This document shows, piece after piece, positions 1,416 to 25,153 of a stretch of 45,815 nucleotides of DNA. Within the stretch, counting starts at the first letter, position 1, and the number at the start of each line of letters is the position of its first letter. Both the position numbers and the translations under genes were made by a program. The notes beneath the pieces are model-generated. The model saw only the letters and a program-made list of their open reading frames with translations. It ran no database searches and had not been told where the DNA came from. This DNA is from Folioceros fuciformis (lineage: Eukaryota), in the NCBI GenBank assembly GCA_049999805.1, contig JBNGIO010006249.1, positions 408,981 to 454,795 of the forward strand, given 5' to 3'.

Positions 1416-3891
1416 ATGACTAAATCGTCAGGACCCACGTCCTCAGGCGAGGAGGATGTGCGCAAGGGCGCTTGGACCGCCGAGGAGGACGAGAAGCTCC
1501 GGGCTTACATCGAAAAAAACGGCACTGGCCATTGGCGCAGTGTTGGGCGCAAAGCAGGTGGGTGGCCAGGGTCACACAATTGCAACTTTCCTTTCTTGTG
1601 TAGTGTGTAGCCCAGGGGATGCTGCACTTTCGATTCTCTTCAAAACAACAATCCTCCACCGCACGATCATGTTCTGCTGGTGTGAAGAAGGAAGGAGGAA
1701 TTGGAGGCAGATTTTAACTGGTTGCGCACTCCTGTTGTTGGCTTACAGGATTGCAAAGATGCGGGAAGAGCTGCCGCCTGCGCTGGACCAACTACCTCCG
1801 CCCTGACATCAAGCACGGAAGCTTCACTCCGGAGGAAGAGAAGCTCATCATCGAGCAGCACCTCACCATGGGCAGCAGGTGATTGCGCGCTTTCTCAGAA
1901 TTGAGACCGGCGTGCATGACACTTGTTTGCACTGTCGAGCAATTTCCGTGTTGGGTCTTCCGCATTTGAAAATTCCTGCTGAGCGTTTGGCCGCCAGCCA
2001 GAGTGGAAGACACGAGTGTTGGAGTTGCTGTTGCTTGTTTGTCTGCGTGAGTGAGCGTCAAACATGGTGGCTGGAAATGCTTGTTTTCCTGTGGTNNNNN
2101 NNNNNNNNNNNNNNNNNNNNNNNNNNNNNNNNNNNNNNNNNNNNNNNNNNNNNNNNNNNNNNNNNNNNNNNNNNNNNNNNNNNNNNNNNNNNNNNGCGGG
2201 CGCCTGATCTTTCTTCCTTGCTGTCTTCCAGATGGTCGCAGATCGCAAGCAAGCTCCCGGGCCGAACGGACAACGACATCAAGAACCATTGGAACACTCG
2301 GCTCCGGAAGAAGCTGGTGGATATGGGCATCGACCCGGTGACCCACAAGCCCATCTCGGAGATCCTCAGGAATATGGCGGGGAACATGGCGAACTGCAAG
2401 AGCGGGCCGGTACCCAAGCTCATGGCCGAAGCCAGGCGCTGCTTCGGCGACGCCACCATCAACAAGGCACTGCAGGACTACATGCTCCCACAAAGTGGAA
2501 GCAGCAACGCCACCGCCGTCGCCGCCGGTCAAGAAATGGAGGCCAAGATGGAGCGGGCAGACATCCAGGGGCCCCTCCACGCTCTGCCCACTCAGGCTGC
2601 TGACAACCTGGTCACCTTCGCTAGGATGCCCGACATGGCCACCTTCTGCCCCGGTATCAATACCGCCCTCTCCTCCAACTCCGACAGCTTCAGCGACGGC
2701 AGCGATGTCGACACGCAGTCCTCGGGCGGGGTGACCTCGCAACCGGGCGCGGCGGCGGGCTCGAGCTTATCCTCCCGGAGGAGACACAGTGGCAACGGTG
2801 GGCAGCAATTGTCAATTTTCGCGAGGCGCGGGCTGGCGGCTCACTCTATTGTTATCGACTCGGATGACGAGATCGAGTCCCCGAGGAGGGCAGTGCCGTC
2901 TGGTCTGGAGCCGTCGGTGCTGAACAGGAAGATGAGGCTGGTGCTCCGCGAGGCCATGACGCAGGGGGTCGGGTTGAGGAAGAGGACGGCTGAGACCTGC
3001 AGCACCAGCGAAGCTTCCCAGGCCGGGAGCAACAAGAGGCACCACAGAGACCTGGTGCAGTGCCAGGATTTCCAATCCCAGCATCACCAACAACTGCAAC
3101 AACAACAACAACAACAACAACAACAGCATCTGCACCAGCATCACACCTTAAGTTTTATGGGTTCCTCTCCCATGTCTTCCTGTGCCATGGTATCCGGCTA
3201 TGGTGGGTTCCAGTCGGAGGCCATGACAGTGGCTGCCCCGGCTCCTCTCCCGGCCGCTGAGGCTGGTTTTGGGATGGGAGAGGAGCAGGGGATGAGCTTC
3301 TCTGCCCCCGACTTCGCGTCTTCGCATCTGGTGCGGAGCTCGGGGCAGGAGGGCTACGCGATGCCGGCTGCCAGCTCTAGCGACTGGTCGGAGGAGAGTT
3401 TGAGGCAGCTGCTGGAGCCGAGCAGTGGGTTCTGGAATGTGGAGCAGCAACACCAAGGGAGGGGGTCTGGGTCTTCCCAGGCCAGAACTTCGTCCGGGAA
3501 TGCGAGCATGCCAATAAACGATACCTGCTCCTTGTGGTTCATTCCCAGAGGAGGAGATGGGTCTGCTCCTGCCGGGGCTCAAAGCACGTCCTTGCCGCTG
3601 GATTCGCCGATGGGGGCTGCCAGATGTGTGGCGAATGTGGTGGATGATATCTATGAGATTTCGCCCCTGGCGACGCCACGAAGCTGGGCGGGGAGCTTCC
3701 CGACCAATGTTGCATCCGAGACACACAATTCGCGGTTGCAGCAGCAACAAGCCAGCCTGTCCAGCACGCCCGACATTCCGGCTTGCTGGCAGGATGGGTT
3801 TCTGAGCACGCCCAAGAGCATGGGGCCCGACATGGCGCACTTCGACTTGCCCAGCCCCAAGCTTGTCCCTATCTGGGCCTTCCACGACTGA
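1416..3891 (+). CDS. R2R3-MYB transcription factor, MYB80/MYB35 (MS188/TDF1)-like; exons 1416-1557, 1749-1878, 2232-3891
   Basis: Spliced translation gives [12 protein letters not shown]...GHW...[32 protein letters not shown]...[31 protein letters not shown]. Both introns are GT-AG at the canonical R2R3 positions, and exon 2 has the canonical 130-nt length. [10 protein letters not shown] motif follows R3. Intron 2 contains a 100-N gap. Confidence 0.95.
3088..3126 (+). repeat. (CAA)n tract encoding poly-Gln in the MYB C-terminal region
   Basis: caacaacaa... translates to [13 protein letters not shown]. Confidence 0.9.
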
Positions 3892-4239
3892 GCTCAAGTT
3901 TCATCCAAGGCTCCAGGAGCCTGTGGTGGGCATGGCAGATTCCTTTCTTCGGTGGATGATTGGAATGGAATGGTCTGCCTGCATCAAGCCTACAATTTTC
4001 TTCCCCAACATTCTGTGGCAGCATTGTCAGATTCTGCAGGGACAGATCATGGTGCCTCCAATCCGTGTAACATATCCGTCCTAGTAGCGATCTTCCTCAC
4101 GAGTGCTGCTCTCCTTTCAGACAGAGTCTGGCGGCTACATCTTCTAGACAGTTGCAGTGAGCCCACTCACTGCTCGGGACCTGGCCAAATGGGCCTGTGT
4201 AAATATCCATTTCGAAGAGTCTAGCCTTAAATTTGTTCA

Positions 4240-4800
4240 CACCTTCTTCTTGACCAGTATGTCGGAGGTGGACCAAGGACGAGCTCGCAAAGACGAGGTG
4301 TTTCCTGTTGCACTCTTCAGTCAGTTCATGGGAATCACATGAAGAACAGTACAAGCTCGGTCCAGAACTCCATCTTCGACCGGCAAGATGAAGCTGTCCC
4401 TACCACCATCCTACTCCCTGGAGAAGATTTAGTGGATATATTAAATATACGAATATGTTGTTGATTTGAATATTGCGTCTTACTATTCTTGTACTCTTGG
4501 ACACTACTTGGAGAGTACGTAGTCGTTGAAGGTGAGGATTCAGTGGTAGGATCTCTGACCCTTTGGTGCATGGGCTTTGGTCTTCCAGCTATGTATGCAC
4601 ATGTATGTCTGCCGCCAGGGTTTTGGTCTTCTTTGAAATGCCTATCTTTTTACATGGAAGTCAATGGTCATATGTGGCTCACAAACTTCACTATCCCTCT
4701 GAGTTCCCCTTCCAGTGGCGTACAGTACAAAATACTATGGCATAGGCTTCGGGTTGTGTTATTCCCTGATAAGAGCTATACCAAGTCTGTTCTTGGAATC
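4240..4800 (+). pseudogene. Decayed partitivirus-like (Durnavirales) RNA-dependent RNA polymerase fragment (endogenous viral element)
   Basis: Motif remnants occur in RdRp order across frameshifts: FFLTSMSEVDQGRA (~4244-4285, motif A-like), TTILLPG then FSGYIKYTNMLLI*ILRLTI (~4401-4490, motif B-like), YVVVEGEDSVVG (~4516-4551, GDDS-like), and RLRVVLFPD (4744-4770, cf. deltapartitivirus LRLLIFPE). The comparison is from memory and the sequence is heavily degraded. Confidence 0.5.
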
Positions 4801-4807
4801 GAAAGCT

Positions 4808-5650
4808 ATGGAGGATGGTGCATCAACCACTTCAAATGTCGGCATTGTCACAAATAAGCTGTATGTGGACACGGACTTCAAGAAAAAAATTCCTTCGACT
4901 TGCCTGACTACTAGTCAATTTGAGGCGCGAATGCGGCCTCTTGCCCAGGCGATCACCTCAGGGAAGGCTAATGTAGTCTTAGGAGACGCCTTGTGCCGAG
5001 GGATCATTGTCTACCAAGAAGCTATTGATCCTGAAAACGCATTGAGGATCGCTGATTCCTTGGAACAACCACCTTCTTTTACAAGGCTAATGGTCTTTGC
5101 CCAGAAGCAGAAGAAATTCGCCTGTAGACAGCAGAAAATTGCTCGCAAAGACAGCAAACGAGAAGACACCTTGGTTGCCGCCCTTGCAAAGACATTGCAC
5201 AGCAATCGAAGACTACTCCAGGAATGTCTCGAGGATTACTTCTAGCTCCGAGAAGCGAATGAAATATCTTCGGGAACGTTGGCAAGAGGAGCGAGACCGT
5301 CTGAAGCGCAGGCTCAGAGCCACTGGTAAGGAGTACCCTATGGTGTCGATGTACAGGCCACTCGACAAGGCAAAGCTGATCAAGTGCGCCCTCGACAAGT
5401 TAAACGCTCGACTGGTGGCTGCTGGTGAGCAACCCAAGAGCCCTGGGGATGATGCCATTACGCAAGCTGTTGATGTGTATGGAGAGGAGGTGGAAGAGGA
5501 GTACCTCATGAATTATGTCCAGCGGGACGATGTGAGGAATGATCTCCTAGCCTATGGAGACAAAGGGAATCATTAAGTTGCTGCGGGATGAGAGAAACAG
5601 GTTTCGTGCCAGGCATTTTCGTGACGTTGTGGACATCGTTCAGGGAGAGC
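4808..5650 (+). pseudogene. Amalgavirus ORF1-like endogenous viral element with two +1 frameshifts (~5242, ~5563) and retained UUU_CGU motifs
   Basis: Joined ORFs 4715-5245 and 5097-5576 give VVLGDALCRGII, RDRLKRRLRATGKEYPMVSMYRPL and AVDVYGEEVEEEYLMNYVQRDDVRNDLLAY. These match recalled Southern tomato virus ORF1 blocks LALGAAVAHGVL, REKLEEDLIATKSNYEPVSRYVGL and AFDMYAEFVAKTNRLEFLKHGNVKDELQAF in order and spacing. In-frame TTT CGT occurs at 5602-5607 and 5617-5622. No introns. Confidence 0.75.
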
Positions 5651-6747
5651 GTGCTTTTTGGTAAGCCAAGCTTAGGAAGGACCCCTCTAGACGGAGTAAA
5701 TGGAAGGGGCCTCTATGTAGCTCGAGTTAGAGTGTTTGCTTGTTTCTCATCCTGGAACCAGTTTTTCAGCCTTGCTTGAAACCTATTTCTCCCCCTTTTT
5801 CATTCTGGAAGAGCGTGAATTCCCACGACTTGCGACGCTGTAACATGCCTCTTTCACCTTTCTCATTCTGGAACAAGGAACATGTCCCATGGTCCTCATC
5901 CTGGAACCATACTTGCCTTCCACACGTTTCTCAGTATCCTCTTCTAGGATATGATAACCCTTGCTTGCAACATGGGTTTTGGTCCTCATCCACATCCTGA
6001 GACATTTTTCCCACCCTGGAAACCTCCTTGCCTACGGTTGTGTACCGAGAGAGGAACCAGCCACAGAAACATCGTTCTCGATTCTATCACGGTCTCCAAC
6101 GACCCGTCAACTGCTTGCAATAGTAAATCATGAACAGTCCACTACTCCTGTGCATAACCAGGTGTGGAGAACAGAGTGTCGGATCTTTGTCGTCTCATTG
6201 CGCACATAAGACGAATCTGTACATAAAAATTATGCGGCAAGTGGCAGACTTCACCGCCGGTTACGGCTCGTAATGCCAACGAGCAGGGAGCGGACTGCAG
6301 CACGTCGGACCACTCATGTTTCTGTGGGAGCACGCAAAAAATTCTGAACCGCTGGCCTGTTCTAGACCTTTCTTGCACAGAAATGGTATGATGTAAAGTT
6401 CACAGCAACACTGTCTAGTCAAATCTAAGCAGGCTTCAGCAGAGTCGATCATAAGTATTGCGTGGATGGCAAAGTTTAGAGACGAAGTGCCGCCTGCCTC
6501 AGCCAGCTGCAGGGCAACACTGTCATGTGGAAGGGATCCTGGGCAAACAAGTTTCCATTACGGCAGGAAAAGCTGCTCCTCTCAGCAGCTTCTGCATGAC
6601 CCCACCGGATAACTGAGTCAAGAACGTGATTCACAGCACGTCCTTGGCTTGCATCACCACGCCCGGGGCCTTCTGCATAGTTACCATCTTCCTGGAGCTT
6701 GACTTTAGGAACCCATTATTCTACTGAGCAGTGCACTGAGGGATGAG
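5650..6747 (+). repeat. Non-coding module, copy 1 (diverged direct repeat of 9961-11230)
   Basis: Collinear shared blocks: aaggacccctctagacggagta (5677), atgtagctcgag, CTCATCCTGGAAC sub-repeats, tctccaacg, gacgaatctgt (6210), cctgttct, aagttcaca, aagggatcctgg, gaccccacc, ggccttctgca, and terminal gatgag. Confidence 0.85.
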
Positions 6748-6749
6748 AT

Positions 6750-9700
6750 GAGACGTTGCATTGGCATATATTCTGATGAGTTGCATGCGTCACCACGTTC
6801 TCCTTACGGTGGTGTGCACATAATCAGAGGACTGCCTCTGGGAGGTCTTTTATTACATGAATATTCCTTTGTCTCAACGGTTTCCTCCAGCTCTATATCG
6901 CATGTAGATCGATGTTGTGGACTGTTAGCATGTGGGGCTCATACAGTCTCCGTTACAGCTTGCGATTCGAGCAACCCTTTGTTGCTCGGATTGCACAGAC
7001 TGCCGAAGTAAACAAAGGTGTTCCTTTGCCTCACAAGTGAACCCAGATTTGAGCACGGAGCTCGAAACCCCAAGGCCGGCCAAGGCCGTACCGAACAGAA
7101 GTTTGAGCTACATTGTTTGACAACGGTCGTGTGCATCGCCTCTTTCAAAATAGGAGATGTTTGTGTGTTGACGACCTTTTGATCGCCTGTCATGTGTGTG
7201 AGGCATGTCAGGTGCAGGAGCATCGGGTTGATGTGATAACTAGATGACGACTCTCCCACAGCCAGAGAAGGAAACTTCAAGGTCTTCCTAGTATTATCGA
7301 CCACTGTGGTTCCAAGAGGTACATGTGCTTCCAGCTCATATGTTCAGAAAGGTCTTCAGCCTCACCAAATACCACTGCAAGTTGGGCGATCATGACCCAG
7401 ACCGAGCTCCACATCCTAGGACTCTCTCTGGTCGTCGAAGAAAACAAACGCAAAGAAGACTCGCGATTGACTTACCGAATGCAAGATGCCTTTAGATGCC
7501 TTAGAACCCGAGAGAAGATGCCGTGTGTCGTCATGTTCTGCCCCGTACCCGGGACAAACAAACAACTTTATTGAAGCTCACCGATCAAATAGATATCGCA
7601 ACAAGGAAACTCGGGCTCCGTGCACATGCTTCTATGGACTGAATTACACAAATGTACGTCACCATCAATCCACACATCTCTCGCTCTTAGGGTGGTCGGT
7701 ACTGTTCTAGCCTCCCAGTTATTTCTCTCTCTAAACGTTAAAATTCACCTGCATCCGCCAGGGCTCCCTTCTATTGAATTTGATGAGAGAATAGCATCAT
7801 GCGAAAAGCACTAAAACATGGCATCCTTGCCCACGGAGAGATCATTCATCCGGAAACAGCAGATGTTGTGTGTTGTGTCCCCGTGTGGGAGCTGTGAACT
7901 TGTATCCGCTGTGCCCAAGTGTCGAAGCTTTCTTGGGCTCCATCTCAACGACATTTCAACCTCAGTTTCTAACTCATGTCCGCTTTGCTACTTTGATTCG
8001 CTGCTGTACATTCTCGTGACACTGCTCATGTGATGACCATTCAGAGAAGGTAAAATAGTTCTTTTAAGACTCTATCATGTGTGCAATTCTCGTCTAGCCC
8101 GTTTCTCCTTCTTGCCGTTGCCTTTCTCCTCTTTCCCTTTCCTTGACCCAGCTCCCACTCCTCGTTTTACAATACGTGCTCCCTAACAAGAACGTCCCTT
8201 TCGAAGAAGAGTGTGCTTCCTTTCTTCTCACCGTTGGCCTCAGTCTCCTTCGTGGAACTCGTAGGCACTTACGGCCCGTTGATGCAATGGACAAGTATCA
8301 GAGACGGTTCAAACAGGGCTCTGAAAAGCTGTCACGGACTGCACATCACAAAAAGGTGCCTTGTTCACATCCAGCATCCCTGTATCGTGGCGAGAAATGA
8401 CTTTATCGAGCACACTCCGCATTTGGAACTTCCCTTGACCTCCATTTCCTCGTGCTGGTGCTACTGTAAGGAACTGCAACCCCCAACACACACGCTGCTC
8501 AAAACGGACTGAAACTAAGACACAAGCATCAACGTTGACAGAAACCAGGCTCTTTGGGACCTAAACCCTCCAATGTTTCCCCGGGAAGCTTTTTGACAAT
8601 TTAACAATACACGCCGTAGCAGCGGCAGCATGACCTATTTGATCCTTACTGAGTCTCTTCAAAGGCTCCTTAAACACCTGTGATTGGTACTTGAGTTGCC
8701 GCTAGCTGCAAAGTGCTGCCACAAAGACGGCACGACGGACGAGTCAATCCCTCGCGCAACCTTCCACAACACACTGTTGAAGTTGGCCTTAAAAGGAAAA
8801 CCTTGGTAGTGTTCCCTTCCCACAAGCCTTGGCTGCCTTCTTCAGATTTTGCAACCTATAGGCTTCATTCTTTGCCACACGTTGTTTCCTGGCAGCTCTT
8901 TTCTTTGCGAGTGGATCCTCATTCAGATCTGATGACGATCAGCAGGCAAGTTCAAATGAGGGCAGAAACGGGAGACAGCATTTTGAAATCACACAACGAA
9001 ACTGGCCCTTCAATAGTTCTGAACAGCGAGGGGCACCAGATTCTGAGCAGAGACGTTCTCGACTCAGCAGAAGCAGAAAGAACAGTACCGTCAATTGGGT
9101 TAGCCTCACGAATGGATATTTCGTTTTCATCTGGAACCCTCTTGTACGCCCACCTCTTTCTCCTTTCTTGAGAACTATCATCAAATTCTAGCTTGCTCCT
9201 CTTCCGCTTTTGAATGCCTGTCCTTGCCGGCAATGAGCTACGAATCTCAGATGTCCACTTCCTACGACCGTGGAAATATGAAACCTACCCTTCGTTTGGG
9301 CAAAGAGCTCCCACTTCGTCGGAGGCTTGGCTTGGGCAACTGCAACCACAAACAAATCCTCCAACCCTCAGAAATCTGTAATCAAGGTCGGCTCAGGCAG
9401 GGCGGTCACTTCTGTCAAACGTGCAGGAGAGACTGAACAGGCTGTTGGCTAGTGCCTGTACCACCGACGTAGCACCCTCCAGGCACACAAGTTCGCACTC
9501 CTCTCTACCCTTTCCCAAATCATGAACAGCGGCCAACAGTTGGTCACGTTGCACCAGAAGTCAGCCCTGTCTTCAGCTCCACAACCGGAATCGTCACTCA
9601 AATCACTGTTAGCCCAATTTACCGGGTGGAGCTGGACGGAATTTCCTCGTCTCTTAGCTGGAAGATCAGTAGGTTGCCAGAGTCTATCTGACAGAAATCT

Positions 9701-9960: not shown

Positions 9961-11230
9961 GCGTGCTCAGCGGGAAAGCCATTTAAGGACCTTCCTAGAC
10001 GGAGTACATGTAGCTCGAGGTAGAGTGCAAGATACTTGTATACCGCATCAAGTTTCTAACCCTGAACGAACTCTTGCCTGCAAGATGTTGCTTCATCTTG
10101 CACATAACGGAAGAAAGCTCGCCCCCACAACTTGCCTGCAAACTGTTGCTTAGTCTTGCTCATCCCGGAAGAATGCTCACCCACAGCTAGCCTGAAACAT
10201 GTTTCTGTTTATTTTTTGTGCTTTCCTGGAACTCAACATGATTCTGTTGTTCTCCGACTGGGACAATACGCGCCTAGGACTTGCTTGCAACATGCTTTGT
10301 ATCTTGCTCATCCTGGAACAATAACAATGCTCGGCTACAACATATTCCTCACCCTGGAACAATACCGGGTGTCTGTAACACATTTTTCCTCATGGAACAC
10401 CGCTTGCTTGCATAGTGTTCCTCTACCTTCGTCATCCCGGAAGGACGCTTATCAGCCCCTTCTTAGCAAGACGGCAACCAGTCAGCATGAACAGCCTTGT
10501 TTGATACAGTCGCCCGCTCGGGTCTACTGACGATGCAAACGTGCACGACGATGCCAGCCTAGATTTGTCGCGATCTCCAACGGATCGTGAAGAAGTTGCA
10601 ACTCGAATGGACAAAAGACTACCGTGCACAACCAGGAGAAGGAAACAGATTCTCACATCGGTATTGGGCTATTGACGAATCTGTGGATGACCATGATGAT
10701 GGACGTGGTAGACAACAGCACAGGTCGCATAGGCTACGGGCACGCTAACGGGATCCAGCATGCCGAGCCGCTCGCATCCTTGTAAGAGCATGCAAAAATT
10801 CCCTGAAACAGCCTGTTCTGGACCTACCTTCAACAATATAGCATGATGTGAAGTTCACACCGGCAAGAGTCATACAGTTGCAGTCAATCTAGGCAGGCCT
10901 CAACAGAGCCCTCCATAAGGACTGTGTGGACGGCACCAGGGCCCCGCGTCCCTCATTTACCTCCAGGGCAAGAACTTCAGGTGCAAGGGATCCTGGACAA
11001 AACAAGTTCCTATTAGGATAGAAAACGCCCTCGTAGAAAATGAGCCACCCATTCAAGCATCTTCTGCGTGACCCCACCAGATAAGCAGGGCAGAGTCAAG
11101 CCCATCACTGGACGTTCTGGAATGCATCACGAGGGCGCTGGCCTTCTGCACAATTGAAATACAGTTTACCGTCAGGCAAGAGCTTTGCTTGAGAAACCTG
11201 CCTTCCTACCGCGCAGTATCATCAGATGAG
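9961..11230 (+). repeat. Non-coding module, copy 2 (diverged direct repeat of 5650-6747)
   Basis: Same blocks in the same order: aaggaccttcctagacggagta (9985), atgtagctcgag, CTCATCCTGGAAC-like sub-repeats, gacgaatctgt (10675), aagggatcctgg, gaccccacc, ggccttctgca, gatgag (11225-11230). Confidence 0.85.
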
Positions 11231-13451: not shown

Positions 13452-13912
13452 GGCCCTCCCCCCCCCCAAGCTCAGCCCAGTGGCAGAAGCAAGCAACCCG
13501 CTCCAGCAGCTGCAACAAGACGNNNNNNNNNNNNNNNNNNNNNNNNNNNNNNNNNNNNNNNNNNNNNNNNNNNNNNNNNNNNNNNNNNNNNNNNNNNNNN
13601 NNNNNNNNNNNNNNNNNNNNNNGCTGTCCGGATGCACGATGCCCAGTCACCCGCAGAGTAAATATTCTTCCTCCCCGCGTCCCACAACACGCAACGCGCA
13701 AAGCGCAAAGCGCAACGCGCCCGTAAATGCCACACCTACCGTCCACCAGAGAACTGAGATGTTAGCAGCTCTTCCTGGGGGAATGCTCCCGTTCGAGCGG
13801 CTCCCGCGGGCGGAGACGCCGTCTGCAGGCGTCTCAGTCTCTTTCTTCTGGCAGAGGCTGAAGTCGGTGGCGTGGATGGATCTAGGTGCGGAGACGGGGG
13901 CTGGGACCTGGC

Positions 13913-19680: not shown

Positions 19681-22600
19681 TCAATGGTGATCACCACACG
19701 AACACGTCCCTCCCTTGAAATGGTGCACACGGTGTGCATCCCTGACTACTATCTCCCGCTGTTCTAACTTGGAGAGAATCTTACTGACGCTGTGACAGTC
19801 GTTGCACATCTTCAAGTTTTTGGTGACTAAGAGAGGGGTTCCTCGGGGAGTGTGGAGGAGACCAAAAGCGATGGCAAGTTTCTCAGCATGTCCACAGAGG
19901 GTGTCTTCTTTTTGCGTTGCAGATATGCGCTTCAAAACCAGGTTAGAGGCAGGAAGATGTCCCTCGCCCTTAAGTTGTGTAATCAAAGTCTTCAGCCTGA
20001 GAGAGATGTCGTCCGACTTCTCTCCCACGAGAAACTCGTGTACCTTGTTGTCTACTTCGATCAAGGCCCTGGCTGGCATCTTGCAGGCACCTGCACTTCT
20101 TCTCAGCTTTTCTATCTCCTCTGCATCCCTCCACCTGCCAGCACCCGCATACATGCTAGACATGAGGACATAAGCACCGGCTTGGTGAGGCTCCAGCTGC
20201 ACGATGCGGTTGAAGTAAGTTCTTCCCCTCTCCACATTGCCGTAGCACTTGCAGGCATTCAGCAAAGACATCCACCCGACGACGTCGGGCTCCCATGGCA
20301 TAAGTTCGAGCAGGCGTTCAGCGTCATCCAAACATCCTGCCCTGCCAAGAAGATCAACCATGCATGTGTAGTGCTCCAGTGTAGGCACAATGCCAAACAA
20401 TTCTTCCATCATTGTGAAGTAGTGCTGACCTTCTTCCACCCAGGCCACATGACCGCATGCAACAAGAAGTGCTGTGAGTGTGGCTTCGTTAGGTTCGACT
20501 CCCTCTGCTTGCATAGCTTGAAAACATTCGATGGCTCTCTCACAGTCGTTGTGCTGCCCATAACCGTTTATGAGCGCAGTCCATGTCACAACATTCCTAC
20601 AAGACAGTCTGTCGAACACTTCCTGAGCCTCCTCAAGCCTTCCGCATTTGGCATACATGTCGACAAGAGTGTTTCCAACACTGATATCTGCTTCGCACCC
20701 AGTTTTGAAGAGCTGGATATGGATCCGCTTGCCCTCACCGATGGCTCCCATGCTCGCACAAACTTTCAGAATGCACGCGAAGGTTACTCCGTTTGGAGCC
20801 ACGTCCATGCTCTGAAACAACGCCAGTGCTTCTTGACCCAGTCCATGCTGGGCGTATAACGCTATTATGGAAGTCCAGACCACAACATCCTTGTCGGAGA
20901 TCCTGTTGAACGCTGTGCGAGCATCATTCAAGTTCCCCCACACCCCGTACATGTGAATAAGAGCGGTCCCCACAGAAACATCTGTTTCAAGCCCCAATTT
21001 GAGGATCTGCTCATGAATCCTCTTGCCTTCCGTCATGGCCCCACTGCTTCCACAAAGTTGTAACACAGTCACAAATGTGGACTTTTCAGGGGTCACGAGG
21101 CTGTCCAGCTCCATTGCTCTGTAGAGTTCTATGCCTTCTTGGGCATGGACGTTCAGGGCATATCCTGCGATCATGGCATTCCATGTTACCACGTTCCTGA
21201 CGGGCAGACAATCAAACACTCTCCTTGATTCCTCTACACTTCCACACTTTGCAAACATGTCCACCAGTGCACTCCCAACAAACAAATCTGTATCTAGCCC
21301 TCTGTCTACTATCTCAGCATGCATGCGCCTGCCCTCACATAGAGATCCCATCGTTCCACAAGCTTTGAGGATACTACAAACCGTCACAGCCGTCGACATC
21401 ACACCTGCTTCTTGCATCCTGGCATACAGGTTCAGCACTTCTTCAGCAAACCCGTACTTCGCATATCCACCTATCATAATGTTCCATGTCACCACATCTT
21501 TGTTCAGCAATCTCTCAAACACCGTTCGGGCATCAAGCAAGCTACCAGACCCAGCATACATGTCCACCAGAGCGTTCCCCACACATACATCTGATCCAAT
21601 TCCTGCTTCGAGGATCCGACCATGAATTCTCCTCCCTTCCTGCAACATGTTCTCCCCTAAACCACTGCATGCTTTCAAGACAGTCACATACGTTGCACTG
21701 TCTGGCTCCACGCCATCCTGTTCCATCCTGGTGTACAGAGTGAGGGCCTGTGCATTCAACCCCTTATGAAGGTACGCAGAAGCAATGACATTCCACGTAA
21801 TAACATCCTTGATTGGAAGCCTGTCAAAGACACTGCGGGCCTCCTCCAGGCTCCCACACTTTGCAAACATGTCAACTAATGCACACCCCACAAACTTATC
21901 CGATTCCACACCTCGCTTCAGTATTTGATCGTGAACCTGTTTACCAGCCTGAAGGGCCCCTAAGCCACTACAAACTTTCAAGATTGTGGCAAAGGTAAGA
22001 TTGTTGGGAGCTGTCTTGCCATCCTCTTCCATGTGCCAGAACAACCGTAGAGCCTCGTGCCCAAGTCCATGTTGGCCATATCCGCCTATCATAGTGGTCC
22101 ATGCAACAACATCTCTGCTCGGACACCTGTCAAAAATCTTACGAGCATCATCCAACCTCCCGCATTTTACGTACATATCCAGCAAACTGTTCCCTACTAC
22201 AGCATCCAACTCAAGCCCCTTCTCCACAATCTGCGAGTGAACACTCATCCCCTCTTTCAAATCTCGCATACTGCCACACACCTTCAGGACGCAGGCATAC
22301 GTTACATTATCAGGACTCACTTCGCTGCGCACCATATCCATGAACAGTTGCAGAGCTTCCTTCGCAAGCCCATTCTGTGCATACCCTGCAATCATAGCAC
22401 TCCATGTCACCACATTCCGTACAGAAATTCTGTCAAACACTTGCTGAGCTTCATTCACAGCACTGCACTTGGCATACATATCCACCAGTGCACTGCCCAC
22501 AAACACGTTCGACTCCATTCCAGCGCCCATCACATCGCCATGGACCTCCTTGCCTGAATCCACATCACCTGAACTCGCACAAGCCTTAAGCACAGCCACA

Positions 22601-23151
22601 AAAACATAGTCATTCGGTCTGACACGCGACCCTCGTAGCTCCTTGTATACCCTGACACCCTCGTGAGCCTGCCCGTACTCAACATAGGCTGCGATCATGG
22701 AAGCCCAAACAAACGTGTCAGGCGCTGCCACTTGCTGGAACACCAACCTCGCTTCCTGCAAGCTTCCTTGAGCAGCATACATCCGGATGAGGTGGTTGGC
22801 CAGAAACGTGTCGGACTCTAACCCACATTTCACAATAAGAGCATGAGCACATCGGCCCACCACCCAATCTTTCTTCTCAGTAAAGCCTTTCACCAACCGG
22901 TACAACATGGGTGCAGACCACGAGCTTCCATGTTGACTCGGTTCTCGTGATGCCTGCTCACGTAACCCATTCCATGCTCCACGATCCAAGCTGCGTGGGC
23001 GAATTTGCGTTTCTTGCCTGGCAACCGCGGAGACAGAGTTCGCTCCAAGATCCCAGCAAAAAGCGCATGCTCGCTGTGCGCTGCCGGTAAGGAAGCTCGG
23101 ATAGATGAACGAAAAGCCCTTGACACCATCGCACCTCCGGATACGCCTCAT
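19681..23151 (-). CDS. PLS-class pentatricopeptide repeat RNA-editing factor, 26 PPR motifs + E1/E2 + variant DYW (DYW:KP type, ends DHH)
   Basis: Single long ORF with L-S-(P-L-S)x7-P2-L2-S2 repeats and E1/E2. It then reads KMPARALIEV, HAEKLAIAFGL, KNLKMCNDCH and RDAHRVHHFKGGTCSCGDHH. The first in-frame ATG at 23151 gives an Arg-rich putative transit peptide; an alternative ATG lies at 22908. Confidence 0.95.
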   Translation of the reverse strand: MRRIRRCDGVKGFSFIYPSFLTGSAQRACAFCWDLGANSVSAVARQETQIRPRSLDRGAWNGLREQASREPSQHGSSWSAPMLYRLVKGFTEKKDWVVGRCAHALIVKCGLESDTFLANHLIRMYAAQGSLQEARLVFQQVAAPDTFVWASMIAAYVEYGQAHEGVRVYKELRGSRVRPNDYVFVAVLKACASSGDVDSGKEVHGDVMGAGMESNVFVGSALVDMYAKCSAVNEAQQVFDRISVRNVVTWSAMIAGYAQNGLAKEALQLFMDMVRSEVSPDNVTYACVLKVCGSMRDLKEGMSVHSQIVEKGLELDAVVGNSLLDMYVKCGRLDDARKIFDRCPSRDVVAWTTMIGGYGQHGLGHEALRLFWHMEEDGKTAPNNLTFATILKVCSGLGALQAGKQVHDQILKRGVESDKFVGCALVDMFAKCGSLEEARSVFDRLPIKDVITWNVIASAYLHKGLNAQALTLYTRMEQDGVEPDSATYVTVLKACSGLGENMLQEGRRIHGRILEAGIGSDVCVGNALVDMYAGSGSLLDARTVFERLLNKDVVTWNIMIGGYAKYGFAEEVLNLYARMQEAGVMSTAVTVCSILKACGTMGSLCEGRRMHAEIVDRGLDTDLFVGSALVDMFAKCGSVEESRRVFDCLPVRNVVTWNAMIAGYALNVHAQEGIELYRAMELDSLVTPEKSTFVTVLQLCGSSGAMTEGKRIHEQILKLGLETDVSVGTALIHMYGVWGNLNDARTAFNRISDKDVVVWTSIIALYAQHGLGQEALALFQSMDVAPNGVTFACILKVCASMGAIGEGKRIHIQLFKTGCEADISVGNTLVDMYAKCGRLEEAQEVFDRLSCRNVVTWTALINGYGQHNDCERAIECFQAMQAEGVEPNEATLTALLVACGHVAWVEEGQHYFTMMEELFGIVPTLEHYTCMVDLLGRAGCLDDAERLLELMPWEPDVVGWMSLLNACKCYGNVERGRTYFNRIVQLEPHQAGAYVLMSSMYAGAGRWRDAEEIEKLRRSAGACKMPARALIEVDNKVHEFLVGEKSDDISLRLKTLITQLKGEGHLPASNLVLKRISATQKEDTLCGHAEKLAIAFGLLHTPRGTPLLVTKNLKMCNDCHSVSKILSKLEQREIVVRDAHRVHHFKGGTCSCGDHH

Positions 23152-25153
23152 CTTCCTCTGCAGCCCTGCAGGACAAGCCACCAGATCCCTGCAGCCTTGA
23201 GACGAGCCTGTGCGGCCTGCACCACCTCTCCATAGGACATTTCGCTACGACACTCGCAGAGCAATTCAAGTCCCAAGCTCAGGTTTGCGTTCCATCCTTC
23301 AAGCCTGCACACGGCTGAACCAAGCTGATTTCACATTCCAACAGTGCAACACCCTCCATTCTTCGTCCTGAAATCCGGAACACGAGTCCATTTGTGTGCC
23401 TGGATACCTAGTAAAAATGCAGTGGCTTGGCAGGCTTCGTGTGCATCCTTCCTCGTGCAAATCCTTGAGGAGCAATGGCTCGTTCCATGCACAAGGATCA
23501 GTCTCCATGGGCTTCATCCCTTCCTTCCCGATGCACTTCCTTGGGATGGATTGTTCCCATCTCTTGCAAGCACATACATACATGCATCGATGAGTGTGTC
23601 GTCTCCTACGTGCTGTACACACAAGTGCTCCGTTCTCCAGTTTAAAATACAATCTCGAAGATTTTCAAATTTTACAAAAAGACCCAGAGAAGTGGGCGAG
23701 GACGTGTGGACGTTATCTGCAGCCTGTCCTACATAAACTGATGAGAGATTCAAAATCCGAGTCCGTCTTATCGACACAATCATTCCGACCTTGAGATGTG
23801 TCACAGGAAAAGACAAGCTTTTTGGTGCGGGGCCGAGGGGAAGCGAGTGCAACTCATGACGAGGCCCGTTTTATAGAAAAGAAGATGGCGGTGCGGTGGC
23901 GACGATTGTGGCGACTCATTAATGCTGTCTGACGCTGATATTTGAGACCGGAAATAAAATCCCATTCGCCTTCACACGCCCCCGCCATTTCGTGGACGGT
24001 GGGGCCTGCGACTGTCCTTTGACTTAATTCTGCCGTTAACTGCGCATTAAAACTGCAGGGCCGGCTTCCGCCTTCGCGCAGCCCTAGAGGTTCCCAAATT
24101 CCTCATCGGGAACTCGGCCTCGCCTGGGAAGCGCTAGCCCCGGTGCGTGGAGCCCGGTGCCGCATCTCGTTTCCCGCCGCAGCCGCAGGGCTATACTGGA
24201 TCGCCATCTGCGTTGCAGTGGCGCCCCCTGTGGGGCACGGCAAGGCCAGTTGCTCGGTCCCAACGCGCACTGGGCCTCCTTCCTTGTACTGGAGCGCCTG
24301 TTGCAGAGCAACAGCCAGAGGTGGCGGATGGCGGATTGGAGGAGACTGTTGCTTCACACGGCCGCTGGCTATGGCGATTGGGCCCCGCGCGTATGTGGGC
24401 ACGCCTGGTTGGTTGCCGCAGGAGATTGTGGAGGTGTGAAGTCGTTGGAGGTGGTGTGCTGAGGGGACAAAGGCAGGCTGCCGGTGGCCCTCTCGACGGA
24501 GTGTCGGACGAGCGCAGTCGTCGGGAGGCAGGGAAGGGGAGNNNNNNNNNNNNNNNNNNNNNNNNNNNNNNNNNNNNNNNNNNNNNNNNNNNNNNNNNNN
24601 NNNNNNNNNNNNNNNNNNNNNNNNNNNNNNNNNNNNNNNNNGGCAGGCTGCCGGTGGCCCTCTCGACGGAGTGTCGGACGAGCGCAGTCGTCGGGAGGCA
24701 GGGAAGGGGAGGGGAGGGGAGGGGAGGGAAGGGAAGGGACGCGTTTTGCGGAAGGGAAGGAAGGGATGTTAACTATGGTGTGTGGAATGGCCCGGAGCTG
24801 TGATTTGTATGCGTTTGAGAAGAATTTGGCAATTCTGAGCTCGTTCGAGGGGGTGATGAGAGAGTGAGCGCCTCCCTGATGCCAGAGTAGATGGAGATGC
24901 GGTGGAAGGAGGCGGGGAGGTGATTTGGTTTTGCCTGGCCTGGGATGTTGCATGGATCTGGAAGAATGGGAGAAGCGAGCAGAGGAGGGAGGAAATTGGT
25001 GGACGACAGGGTGCTGGCGGTTGAGCGTTTTCTCGCTTCCGGCCTCCGAGTTTCAGGGGAGGGAACGGGAGCGGGGAGTTGGTGATTTGGGACTGCCGAT
25101 CACTTGCATGCGGTTGAAAGTAGCGGTGGGAGATCGTGGTAGAGGGTAGGAGA

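What the first reader, a model, noticed from the sequence alone, without database searches (positions are those of the whole stretch)
4808..5650. Endogenised amalgavirus ORF1 relic
Seen: two overlapping ORFs join through a single +1 shift at ~5242 into an intronless, helical, coiled-coil-like protein. Recalled homology: three blocks (LGDALCRGII; RDRLKRRLRATGKEYPMVSMYRPL; AVDVYGEEV...VRNDLLAY) align in order with Southern tomato virus p42. Inference: a fossil of amalgavirus infection in what appears to be a non-seed plant, informative for the age and host range of Amalgaviridae.
Basis: partly seen in the sequence, partly recalled or inferred. Interest (0 to 1): 0.82.

Follow-up and report, generated by a model that had tools for sequence, protein, structure and literature searches.

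The report
Amalgavirus gene fossil in plant DNA
Just downstream of a plant MYB gene lies a broken DNA copy of the first gene of an amalgavirus (a persistent double-stranded RNA virus of plants), a molecular fossil of a past infection that still carries the virus family's tell-tale ribosome-slipping site.

Summary
Window 4808-5664 (+) holds three successive open frames (A 4808-5245, B 5091-5576, C 5551-5664), each +1 from the one before. General searches were blank: Pfam, phmmer against 1.84 billion proteins, word searches. I then fetched 20 natural amalgavirus genomes from IMG/VR and built an ORF1p profile from 18 of them. Against all 1142 six-frame ORFs of the window, frame B scores 67.7 bits, E 5e-20. 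Frames C and A rank 2nd and 3rd and are collinear. Read through with X at both breaks, the element aligns as one domain to profile columns 57-298 of 391, at 85 bits. The only two TTTCG in the element are in frame and sit where the viruses have their UUU_CGN +1 frameshift site. There is no RdRp. DNA contigs bridge both junctions with host DNA. It is a truncated, twice-frameshifted endogenous amalgavirus ORF1 relic, most likely inert. Corrections: there are two shifts, not one; the first lies near 5197-5211, not 5242. The host lineage ("non-seed plant") could not be tested. It is a new member of a known kind.

The parts
4808..5202 (+). Piece A: ORF1-like frame from ATG 4808. This frame stays open to TAG 5243-5245, but its homologous part probably ends near 5197-5211.
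   Evidence: Translation. Its ORF (4703-5242) ranks 3rd of 1142 window ORFs against the ORF1p profile (E 1.4; profile columns 55-107 = nt 4895-5053). Three of 1000 shuffles reach this score. With piece C it adds about 17 bits when read through with X.
5197..5211 (+). First break: a +1 change of frame (A to B). This is the best-fitting place; any place in 5091-5245 is formally possible.
   Evidence: Scan of break positions with X at the break: 77.0-77.7 bits at 5197-5211, 69.7-70.2 bits at 5089-5141, 63.9 bits at 5239-5241. The DNA is confirmed by X1 and X2 contigs with 0 differences.
5205..5573 (+). Piece B: the core of the homology, equivalent to ORF1p profile columns 151-269 (the central helical region and what follows it).
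   Evidence: hmmsearch 67.7 bits, E 5.3e-20, bias 0.7, best of 1142 ORFs. The maximum over 1000 shuffles is 4.9 bits. BLASTP to 18 ORF1p: 12 with E<0.1, all collinear.
5551..5573 (+). Second break: another +1 change of frame (B to C). It is bounded by TAG 5548-5550 in frame C and TAA 5574-5576 in frame B.
   Evidence: Frames. B aligns to profile columns up to 267-269 and C from column 272. X1 and X2 contigs cover the site with 0 differences.
5551..5664 (+). Piece C: 37 codons, equivalent to ORF1p profile columns 272-299, ending at TAA 5662-5664.
   Evidence: Ranks 2nd of 1142 ORFs (E 1, collinear). One of 1000 shuffles reaches its score. It has no match to the ORF2 profile.
5602..5622 (+). Fossil +1 ribosomal frameshift site: two in-frame TTT_CGT (5602-5607 and 5617-5622), at profile columns 282 and 287.
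   Evidence: These are the only two TTTCG in 4808-5664, and both are in frame C. Seventeen of 20 amalgavirus genomes have an in-frame TTT_CG in the ORF1/ORF2 overlap, at profile columns 275, 281 or 287 (one of them has a second at 334). TTTCGTGCC and TTTCGTGAC also occur in viral contexts. Chance expectation is 0.009 in-frame hits in that 13-codon span. The motif is described in PMC5052127.
1807..4681 (+). Context only: upstream host R2R3-type MYB gene (last exon ends at 3891) and its apparent transcript end.
   Evidence: Pfam Myb_DNA-binding, E 2.9e-8. A 1583-nt contig of run X3 (guessed to be RNA), depth 74, ends at 4681.

Best explanation
Window ~4808-5664 (+) is an endogenous viral element. 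It is a DNA copy of roughly the first quarter of an amalgavirus plus-strand RNA, running from near the start of ORF1 (the putative coat/nucleocapsid-like protein, p42 in Southern tomato virus) to just past the ORF1/ORF2 ribosomal frameshift site. It is inserted in nuclear DNA about 130 nt beyond the apparent 3' end of a MYB transcript.

Shown: homology to ORF1p over profile columns 57-298 of 391; retention of the family's UUU_CGN slippery motif at the homologous place; absence of any RdRp sequence; two +1 frame breaks; physical continuity with host genes in DNA contigs.

Inferred: the RNA was copied by a host retroelement's reverse transcriptase and joined in by illegitimate recombination, as is assumed for other non-retroviral RNA-virus insertions. 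No retroelement, poly(A) tail or target duplication was seen here. The copy was truncated at or after insertion. It now does nothing as a protein: it cannot replicate and cannot make full-length ORF1p. That it has only two disruptions and a still protein-like composition suggests a fairly young insertion or a past period of constraint (inference only).
For: Sequence homology:
- A profile of 18 natural ORF1p against all 1142 six-frame ORFs (>=25 aa) of the window gives frame B 67.7 bits, E 5.3e-20. Frames C and A are the next two best hits and are collinear.
- Shuffle controls: B 68.0 bits against a maximum of 4.9 in 1000 shuffles; the A score is reached by 3 of 1000 and the C score by 1 of 1000.
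- The read-through with X at both breaks aligns as one domain, columns 57-298, at 85.3 bits.
- BLASTP of B has 12 of 18 viruses at E<0.1, all at ORF1p ~153-283. The best is ORF1p of Camellia oleifera amalgavirus 1; STV p42 gives E 2e-4.
- Identity to the viruses (12-26% in B) equals the virus-to-virus range (median 21%).
- Five of the 9 columns shared by >=16 of 20 viruses are kept.

Family hallmark:
- There are two in-frame TTT_CGT at profile columns 282 and 287. Seventeen of 20 viruses have their site at columns 275, 281 or 287. Chance expectation is 0.009.

Independent hint:
- A Foldseek search of BFVD ranked an amalgavirus ORF1p first, with three more named ones in the top 41. None is significant alone (E 0.46-5.1) and the model was poor.

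Integration:
- X1 contig 3600-5637 (it continues 500 nt upstream), X2 contig 5185-5718 and X1 contig 5698-6255 all show 0 differences.
- A run from a second study (X3) holds 4672-4841, across the 5' junction, and 4937-5096.
- The flanks are plant nuclear genes: MYB, PPR-DYW, DUF668, GH17, F-box.

Relic status:
- There are two frame breaks.
- No window ORF matches the ORF2 (RdRp) profile; the best E is 0.67, elsewhere in the window.
- The +1 frame behind the slippery site shows no ORF2 similarity.
Against: - No single-sequence search found it. phmmer against 1.84e9 representatives gave 0 hits at E<=1e-3. The word search gave 1389 candidates, none at E<=10. The best pairwise scores (43-47 bits) are too low for libraries of that size, so the case rests on a targeted comparison chosen after a hypothesis.
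- Pieces A and C are individually insignificant (E about 1).
- Profile columns 108-151 show no detectable similarity, and the near-invariant Gly (column 115) and Trp (column 109) are not kept.
- The N-terminal ~55 and C-terminal ~90 profile columns are unmatched.
- The profile alignment around the slippery site is loose: presumably homologous viral sites fall in three different columns.
- No sign of the insertion mechanism was found: flanking ORFs have no Pfam or transposon hits, and no poly(A) tail or target duplication was seen by reading 5664-5700 or among the short direct repeats listed for 4000-7500.
- The two DNA runs are from one sample, possibly the one that was assembled, so they are not independent of the assembly.
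- 'Inert' is an inference. Run X3 has depth-3 contigs over 4672-5096 that could be low transcription or DNA carry-over.
Confidence: 0.85

Rival explanations
1. The element is amalgavirus-derived but not inert. It has been co-opted, either as a source of small RNAs that prime silencing of related amalgaviruses, or as a short expressed protein (ATG 4808 to TAG 5245, 145 aa, an N-terminal ORF1p-like fragment) that interferes with viral assembly or replication.
For: The composition is still protein-like, and the three pieces contain only two disruptions over about 285 codons. Run X3 (guessed to be RNA) has low-depth contigs over 4672-4841 and 4937-5096. Counterfeit viral proteins and EVE-derived small RNAs that confer immunity are documented for other integrated RNA-virus genes (abstract of PMC6166632, seen in the listing).
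Against: Two frameshifts cut the protein before its best-conserved part. The X3 depth is 3, against 74 for the neighbouring MYB transcript, and X3 is only guessed to be RNA. No promoter, orthologue or selection data were obtained. No RNA holder is on record, which is no evidence either way.
Confidence: 0.08
2. Assembly artefact or contamination: reads or cDNA of a replicating amalgavirus were wrongly joined to plant DNA, and the element is not in the chromosome.
For: Amalgaviruses are persistent, vertically transmitted and common in plant samples (PMC5052127; PMC12142844). The two DNA runs that bridge the junctions come from one sample, which may be the source of the assembly. The X1 contig ending at 5637 carries 25 unmatched letters at its end (table 7).
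Against: A dsRNA virus leaves no DNA. Contigs of runs labelled DNA (a guess by the tool) bridge both junctions with 0 differences. A third run from another study holds 4672-4841 across the 5' junction. A replicating virus would have an intact ORF1 and an RdRp; here there are two frame breaks and no RdRp. Similar unmatched contig ends occur at four other places away from the element.
Confidence: 0.03
3. The similarity is not virus-to-host. Either it is a cellular helical or coiled-coil gene fragment (or the host source from which amalgaviruses once took ORF1), or it is compositional chance between charged helical proteins.
For: Amalgavirus ORF1p is helical with a coiled-coil-prone centre (PMC5052127). 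Such proteins give spurious weak hits: individual ORF1p sequences hit Filament, Tup_N and Spectrin at E 0.002-0.7. Pairwise identity is only 12-26%.
Against: The HMMER bias term is 0.7 of 68 bits, and 1000 composition-preserving shuffles reach at most 4.9 bits. No cellular relative exists among 1.84e9 representative proteins or in Pfam. The in-frame UUU_CGN motif at the homologous place has no role in a cellular gene. The stretch is intronless, broken and single-copy in the window.
Confidence: 0.02

Closest known systems
Amalgavirus ORF1p (putative coat / nucleocapsid-like protein; p42 of Southern tomato virus), family Amalgaviridae
   Same: Significant collinear homology over profile columns 57-298 of 391. 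The prediction is all-helical (low confidence), as reported for ORF1p (PMC5052127). An in-frame UUU_CGN sits at the place of the viral +1 frameshift site. Divergence from each virus is as large as between the viruses themselves.
   Different: It is DNA in a plant chromosome, not dsRNA. It is broken by two +1 frame changes. It lacks the first ~55 and last ~90 profile columns, the near-invariant Gly, and the whole ORF2/RdRp. Its placement among the 20 viruses is unresolved, and it has the longest terminal branch.
Non-retroviral endogenous RNA-virus elements of plants (for example partitivirus coat-protein-like genes, and the 'amalgavirus, 3 species' entry in the table of the review PMC6908805, which cites Liu et al. 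2010)
   Same: It is a fragment of a single gene of a persistent dsRNA virus, integrated in nuclear DNA and disrupted by frameshifts. Nibert et al. describe exactly this state as typical of such insertions (PMC5052127 discussion).
   Different: I could not read Liu et al. 2010 (not held), so I cannot say which gene or hosts those three cases involve. In the papers I could search, I found no report of an amalgavirus-derived insertion that keeps the frameshift motif.
Exogenous amalgaviruses of non-seed plants: Physcomitrium patens amalgavirus and 'Lycopod associated amalgavirus'
   Same: If the host here is a non-seed plant, these would be the nearest ecological relatives. They show that the family already reaches bryophytes and lycophytes. 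The moss virus I saw only as a citation and one sentence in PMC12142844. The lycophyte virus I saw in a passage of preprint 10.1101/2022.02.07.479358.
   Different: Those are replicating RNA viruses; the lycophyte one is known only from a partial RdRp.

Membership tests
Amalgaviridae ORF1 (ORF1p / p42) homologue | Significant sequence similarity to ORF1p of recognised amalgaviruses, collinear over a large part of the protein | tested here: met
   Profile of 18 ORF1p: 67.7 bits, E 5.3e-20 for frame B; 85.3 bits for the X-bridged read-through over columns 57-298. Shuffles reach at most 4.9 bits. BLASTP gives 12 of 18 viruses at E<0.1. Virus identities come from source names.
Amalgaviridae ORF1 (ORF1p / p42) homologue | Predominantly alpha-helical protein with a central coiled-coil-prone span (PMC5052127) | tested here: inconclusive
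   The AlphaFold2 single-sequence model shows 10 helices and no strands, but mean pLDDT is 38. No coiled-coil predictor was available.
Amalgaviridae ORF1 (ORF1p / p42) homologue | The one (near-)invariant Gly of ORF1p alignments (PMC5052127: 1 wholly conserved position, a Gly) | tested here: not met
   At profile column 115 (Gly in 18 of 20 viruses) the element has Ser. Column 109 (Trp in 17 of 20) is also Ser. This region (columns 108-151) is the part with no detectable similarity and lies just upstream of the first break. It is compatible with decay or divergence of a relic.
Amalgavirus genome (replicating virus) | ORF2 encoding an RdRp, overlapping ORF1 in the +1 frame | tested here: not met
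   The ORF2 profile (18 viruses, 797 columns) against 1142 window ORFs gives a best E of 0.67, at an unrelated place. The +1 frame behind the slippery site (5606-5779) has no collinear ORF2 match. So the element is a fragment, not a genome.
Amalgavirus genome (replicating virus) | UUU_CGN +1 frameshift motif, in the ORF1 frame, at about ORF1 codon 265-300 | tested here: met
   TTT_CGT at 5602 and 5617, both in frame C, at profile columns 282 and 287. Seventeen of 20 viruses have theirs at columns 275, 281 or 287. It is present as a sequence relic only; function was not tested and none is expected.
Endogenous viral element (integrated in host chromosome) | Physical continuity of the virus-like sequence with host DNA on both sides, in DNA reads | tested here: met
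   X1 contig 3600-5637, X2 contig 5185-5718 and X1 contig 5698-6255, all with 0 differences; X3 contig 4672-4841 comes from another study. Caveats: these are Logan contigs, the run kinds are guessed, and X1 and X2 are one sample.
Endogenous viral element (integrated in host chromosome) | Orthologous presence in related species or fixation in the species (needed for dating) | not testable with these tools
   No genome is held for this window, and no plant genome collection is available. The runs found are all of one coded organism.

The most novel reading that the evidence does not exclude
The host is a non-seed land plant and the insertion is old and shared by related genera. It would then be the first datable fossil of the Amalgaviridae. 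Because it preserves the UUU_CGN slippery site in frame at the homologous place, it would also give a minimum age for this +1 programmed frameshift mechanism and for the ORF1-ORF2 fusion architecture in plant dsRNA viruses.
Probability: 0.2. Interest if true: 0.7.

Novelty: new member of a known kind. Interest (0 to 1): 0.45.

Why it matters
Endogenous copies are the only fossils that RNA viruses leave. Amalgaviruses are symptomless, seed-transmitted companions of many crops and wild plants. Their age and their history with their hosts are known only from trees of living viruses. This copy shows that the ORF1 gene and the family's unusual +1 ribosome-slipping motif existed in the source virus when it entered this plant's germ line. 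If related species carry the same insertion, it would give a calendar date for that.

The case also carries a practical lesson. The element was invisible to Pfam and to exhaustive single-sequence searches of billions of proteins. It appeared only in a targeted profile comparison, so such relics are probably under-counted in plant genomes. As a single broken fragment with no sign of function, its interest is moderate.

Tried and rejected
Protein and DNA searches that found nothing:
- Pfam on the three pieces gave nothing except a chance DUF6627 hit at E 0.11. In one search that family was matched by 1 of the 19 rows of A1, at E 0.12. I take that row to be the window's own piece B, though the call does not name it. 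None of the 18 viral ORF1p matched any Pfam family at E below about 0.002. Pfam therefore has no model for this protein, and its silence says nothing.
- phmmer of the X-bridged 255-aa read-through against 1.84e9 representatives: 0 hits.
- Word-indexed search, run twice (E<=0.01 and E<=10): 1389 candidates, none scored.
- Word-indexed search with the alignment A1 returned only 2 of the input viruses.
- The viral contigs and metagenome-contig scans with the peptide found no relative.
- The ESM Atlas on piece B gave a best score of 0.86, to phage and VanY-type clusters: noise.

Structure:
- The AlphaFold2 model has pLDDT 38. The structural scores in BFVD are therefore meaningless (TM 0.16). Only the ranking of amalgavirus ORF1p served as a lead.

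Fetching viruses by RdRp motif:
- The motif-B pattern in metagenome contigs gave 38 loci, none of them an amalgavirus: 0 hits to the ORF1 or ORF2 profiles.
- The motif-A pattern in viral contigs gave 0 loci.

Element boundaries and relationships:
- Nucleotide BLAST of 4500-5900 against the 20 viral genomes gave no collinear match.
- The FastTree placement is unresolved.
- Six flanking ORFs between 6939 and 10530, and three ORFs beside or overlapping the element (4465-4857, 5543-5779, 5731-6000), have no Pfam or transposon family.
- Rfam found nothing in the window.

Host, expression and prior work:
- Host lineage: an exact look-up of three window proteins found none in the collection, and no genome is held. 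Seed or non-seed remains open.
- No RNA holder is listed for the stretch.
- Earlier notes of this scan held nothing on this genome or sequence.
- Liu et al. 2010 is not held. Supplements of Nibert et al. 2016 (the ORF1p alignment and coiled-coil spans) could not be seen.

Rejected idea: I considered whether either frame break is the ancestral programmed frameshift. Both sides of each break align to ORF1p, not to ORF2.
Full report
WHAT IS IN THE SEQUENCE

On the + strand an ATG at 4808 opens a frame (A) that runs to TAG 5243-5245 (145 aa). A frame one base further on (B) is open from 5091 to TAA 5574-5576. A third frame, again one base further on (C), is open from 5551 to TAA 5662-5664 (37 codons). 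The finding's coordinates (4808-5650) therefore take in three frames and two +1 changes of frame, not one. The stretch occurs once in the window. It lies in a 5' to 3' series of plant nuclear genes:
- an R2R3-type MYB gene, whose last exon ends at 3891;
- a GH17 glucanase;
- a 1187-aa PPR-DYW protein;
- a DUF3475/DUF668 protein;
- a proteasome subunit;
- a C2-domain gene;
- F-box genes.

IS IT MORE THAN CHANCE?

ORF length alone is weak evidence. In 60 simulated windows with the local dinucleotide make-up, 1 had an A-to-(+1)-B path as long as the observed 874 nt. The window itself has 136 stop-free stretches of 100 codons or more.

The content, however, is protein-like. I scored amino-acid composition as a log-likelihood against the ORF's own base composition; the background frequencies were recalled Swiss-Prot values. 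A scores 0.060 and B 0.053 per codon, inside the range of the window's real genes (0.011-0.084). The median of all long ORFs is -0.118. Only 0.07% and 0.11% of 2776 null ORFs reach these values. All three pieces show purine-rich first positions, low T1 and A-rich second positions, each in its own frame.

Both break sites are present without a difference in DNA contigs of two runs (X1 3600-5637; X2 5185-5718). These two runs share a sample and may be the source of the assembly.

WHY GENERAL SEARCHES WERE BLANK

- Pfam gave nothing for the pieces. None of the 18 viral ORF1p in A1 matches a Pfam family at E below about 0.002, so Pfam simply lacks a model.
- phmmer of the X-bridged read-through (P0004) against 1.84 billion representatives gave no hit at E<=1e-3.
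- The word-indexed search gave 1389 candidates and no score.
- Amalgavirus ORF1p sequences are in that collection. They share no 5-residue words with the element, and their best pairwise scores (43-47 bits) are below what a library of that size requires.

THE TURN

A poor AlphaFold2 model (pLDDT 38, all-helical) was searched against BFVD. It had ORF1p of Secale cereale amalgavirus 1 at rank 1 and three more named amalgavirus ORF1p at ranks 28, 37 and 41. None is significant (E 0.46-5.1, TM about 0.16). I treated this as a lead only.

Nibert et al. 2016 (PMC5052127; Results, Discussion passages, legends and Table 1 read) print the conserved RdRp motifs. Back-translated patterns of motifs B and C retrieved 20 full-length amalgavirus genomes from IMG/VR (3316-3478 nt). 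Each has the two overlapping ORFs. Nine of them are named by their sources:
- Southern tomato virus p42 (L002);
- Camellia oleifera amalgavirus 1 (L007);
- Capsicum annuum amalgavirus 1 (L006);
- spinach amalgavirus 1;
- Salvia hispanica RNA virus 1;
- amalgaviruses of Cleome, Festuca, Allium and Anthoxanthum.

THE TEST

BLASTP of piece B against 18 ORF1p gave L007 43.5 bits, E 2.8e-9, at 29.6% identity over 81 residues. Twelve of 18 had E<0.1, all aligned to ORF1p residues about 153-283. STV p42 gave E 2e-4 at residues 163-283.

A profile of the 18 ORF1p (391 columns) was searched with all filters off against all 1142 six-frame ORFs of 25 aa or more in the window. The results were as follows:
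- Frame-B ORF: 67.7 bits, E 5.3e-20, bias 0.7, columns 151-269.
- Frame C, the second-best ORF: E 1, columns 272-298.
- Frame A, the third-best ORF: E 1.4, columns 55-107.
All three are in the right order.

In 1000 composition-preserving shuffles of each piece, B never exceeded 4.9 bits, A's score was reached 3 times and C's once. Read through with X at both breaks, the element aligns as a single domain to columns 57-298 at 85.3 bits. The score peaks (77.0-77.7 bits) when the first break is placed at 5197-5211 and falls to 63.9 at 5239-5241. The second break is confined to 5551-5573 by the stops.

Identity to individual viruses is 12-26% in B, 6-19% in A and 14-32% in C. That is the same as between the viruses themselves (medians 21, 15 and 25%). 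Of the 9 columns where at least 16 of 20 viruses agree, the element keeps 5. It does not keep the near-invariant Gly (column 115) or the Trp (column 109). Columns 108-151 carry no detectable similarity.

A FAMILY HALLMARK

Amalgaviruses make their RdRp as an ORF1+2 fusion by +1 ribosomal frameshifting on UUU_CGN (PMC5052127).
- In 17 of the 20 fetched genomes, an in-frame TTT_CG lies in the ORF1/ORF2 overlap at profile columns 275, 281 or 287. One of these genomes has a second such site at column 334.
- The element has exactly two TTTCG, at 5602 and 5617. Both are in frame C, at columns 282 and 287. Their contexts (TTTCGTGCC, TTTCGTGAC) also occur in the viruses.
- From the window-wide frequency of TTTCG, 0.009 in-frame occurrences are expected in that 13-codon span.

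A cellular gene has no use for this motif, so it also argues for the direction virus to host. Caveat: the profile alignment is loose here.

WHAT IS MISSING

- The ORF2/RdRp profile finds nothing in the window (best E 0.67, elsewhere).
- The +1 frame behind the slippery site (5606-5779) has no collinear ORF2 match.
- The first ~55 and last ~90 ORF1p columns are unmatched.
- There is no nucleotide-level similarity to the viruses.
- There is no retroelement or other recognisable ORF in the flanks.
- No poly(A) tail or target duplication was seen by reading the sequence after 5664 or among the direct repeats listed for 4000-7500.

The element is thus about 0.75-0.85 kb, the 5' quarter of a roughly 3.4-kb genome, ending just past the frameshift site.

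INTEGRATION AND EXPRESSION

Contigs of runs labelled DNA (the tool's guess) bridge MYB into the element (X1 3600-5637, continuing 500 nt upstream). Others bridge the element into the downstream spacer (X2 5185-5718; X1 5698-6255), all with 0 differences.

A run from another study (X3, guessed to be RNA) has a depth-74 contig that ends at 4681, the likely MYB transcript end. It also has depth-3 contigs at 4672-4841 and 4937-5096. These low-depth contigs could be DNA carry-over, read-through or weak transcription, so expression stays open.

MECHANISM, WITH SHOWN AND INFERRED STEPS MARKED

Shown:
- amalgavirus ORF1 origin;
- truncation;
- two frame breaks;
- no RdRp;
- chromosomal context.

Inferred from what is generally held for non-retroviral RNA-virus insertions (Chiba et al. 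2011, abstract seen in the listing; Nibert discussion):
- a viral plus-strand RNA was reverse-transcribed by a host retroelement enzyme;
- the copy was joined into a break 3' of the MYB gene in the germ line;
- it has since decayed.

It cannot replicate and cannot give full-length ORF1p. It has only two disruptions in about 285 codons and its composition is still protein-like. This suggests that it is not very old or was constrained for a time, but this is inference without orthologues.

RIVALS

Rivals are co-option (small RNAs or a 145-aa N-terminal fragment), assembly artefact, and cellular origin or chance. Each is set out with its evidence in the Rival explanations section. Together I give them about 0.13.

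COMPARISON WITH WHAT IS KNOWN

- Endogenous fragments of persistent dsRNA viruses in plant genomes are well known. A review table lists 'Amalgavirus, 3 species' among them, citing Liu et al. 2010 (PMC6908805, passages). I could not read Liu et al..
- Amalgaviruses already reach non-seed plants. One is a vertically transmitted virus of the moss Physcomitrium patens, which I saw only as a citation and one sentence in PMC12142844. The other is a partial RdRp from a lycophyte (preprint 10.1101/2022.02.07.479358, passage).
- Six full-text searches turned up no description of an amalgavirus-derived insertion that keeps the frameshift motif, nor one in a non-seed plant. The library misses most subscription journals, so this is not proof of absence.
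- The host lineage of this window could not be determined here. The PPR-DYW gene places it among land plants (established knowledge of that family; Pfam hit).

VERDICT

- Observation: partly confirmed. There are two shifts, and the first lies about 40 nt upstream of where it was put.
- Interpretation: supported.
- Novelty: a new member of a known kind.
- Interest: moderate (0.45). It would be higher if the host proves to be a non-seed plant and the insertion is shared among genera, because it would then date both the family and its +1 frameshift device.

Noticed in passing
window 5741-6024 (also 10008-10027, 10296-10319): Directly downstream of the element, a ~20-nt motif (TCATCCTGGAACC-like) recurs four to five times at irregular spacings of 33-116 nt. 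Weaker copies lie about 4.3 kb further on. It might be a small dispersed repeat or MITE-like sequence that marks the insertion site.
   Followed up: partly
window 19681-23244 (-): An intronless 1187-aa PPR protein with E motif and DYW deaminase domain (Pfam E 1e-33), ending ...CSCGDHH instead of the usual DYW tripeptide.
   Followed up: partly
window 3600-4681 (+): In run X3 (guessed to be RNA), a 1583-nt contig at depth 74 covers the MYB 3' part colinearly and stops at 4681. This implies a ~790-nt 3' UTR that ends ~130 nt before the viral relic.
   Followed up: no
window 5637, 6267, 6820, 4157, 6515: Several Logan contigs of runs X1 and X2 end with 25-29 letters that do not match the window. 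One of these ends (5637) is inside the relic, and X2 reads through that place. They look like generic contig-end artefacts but remain unexplained.
   Followed up: no
window ~2090-2190, ~13520-13620, ~24540-24640: Three runs of 100 N each (300 N in all) interrupt the MYB gene and two other GC-rich stretches. They are masked or withheld sequence, so the gene models there are incomplete.
   Followed up: no
L012 (IMG/VR contig, 3402 nt): A complete amalgavirus-like genome from a metagenome-derived record. Its ORF1p is named only 'hypothetical protein' by its source, and it lacks an in-frame TTT_CG in the ORF1/ORF2 overlap, as do the STV and Capsicum viruses.
   Followed up: partly
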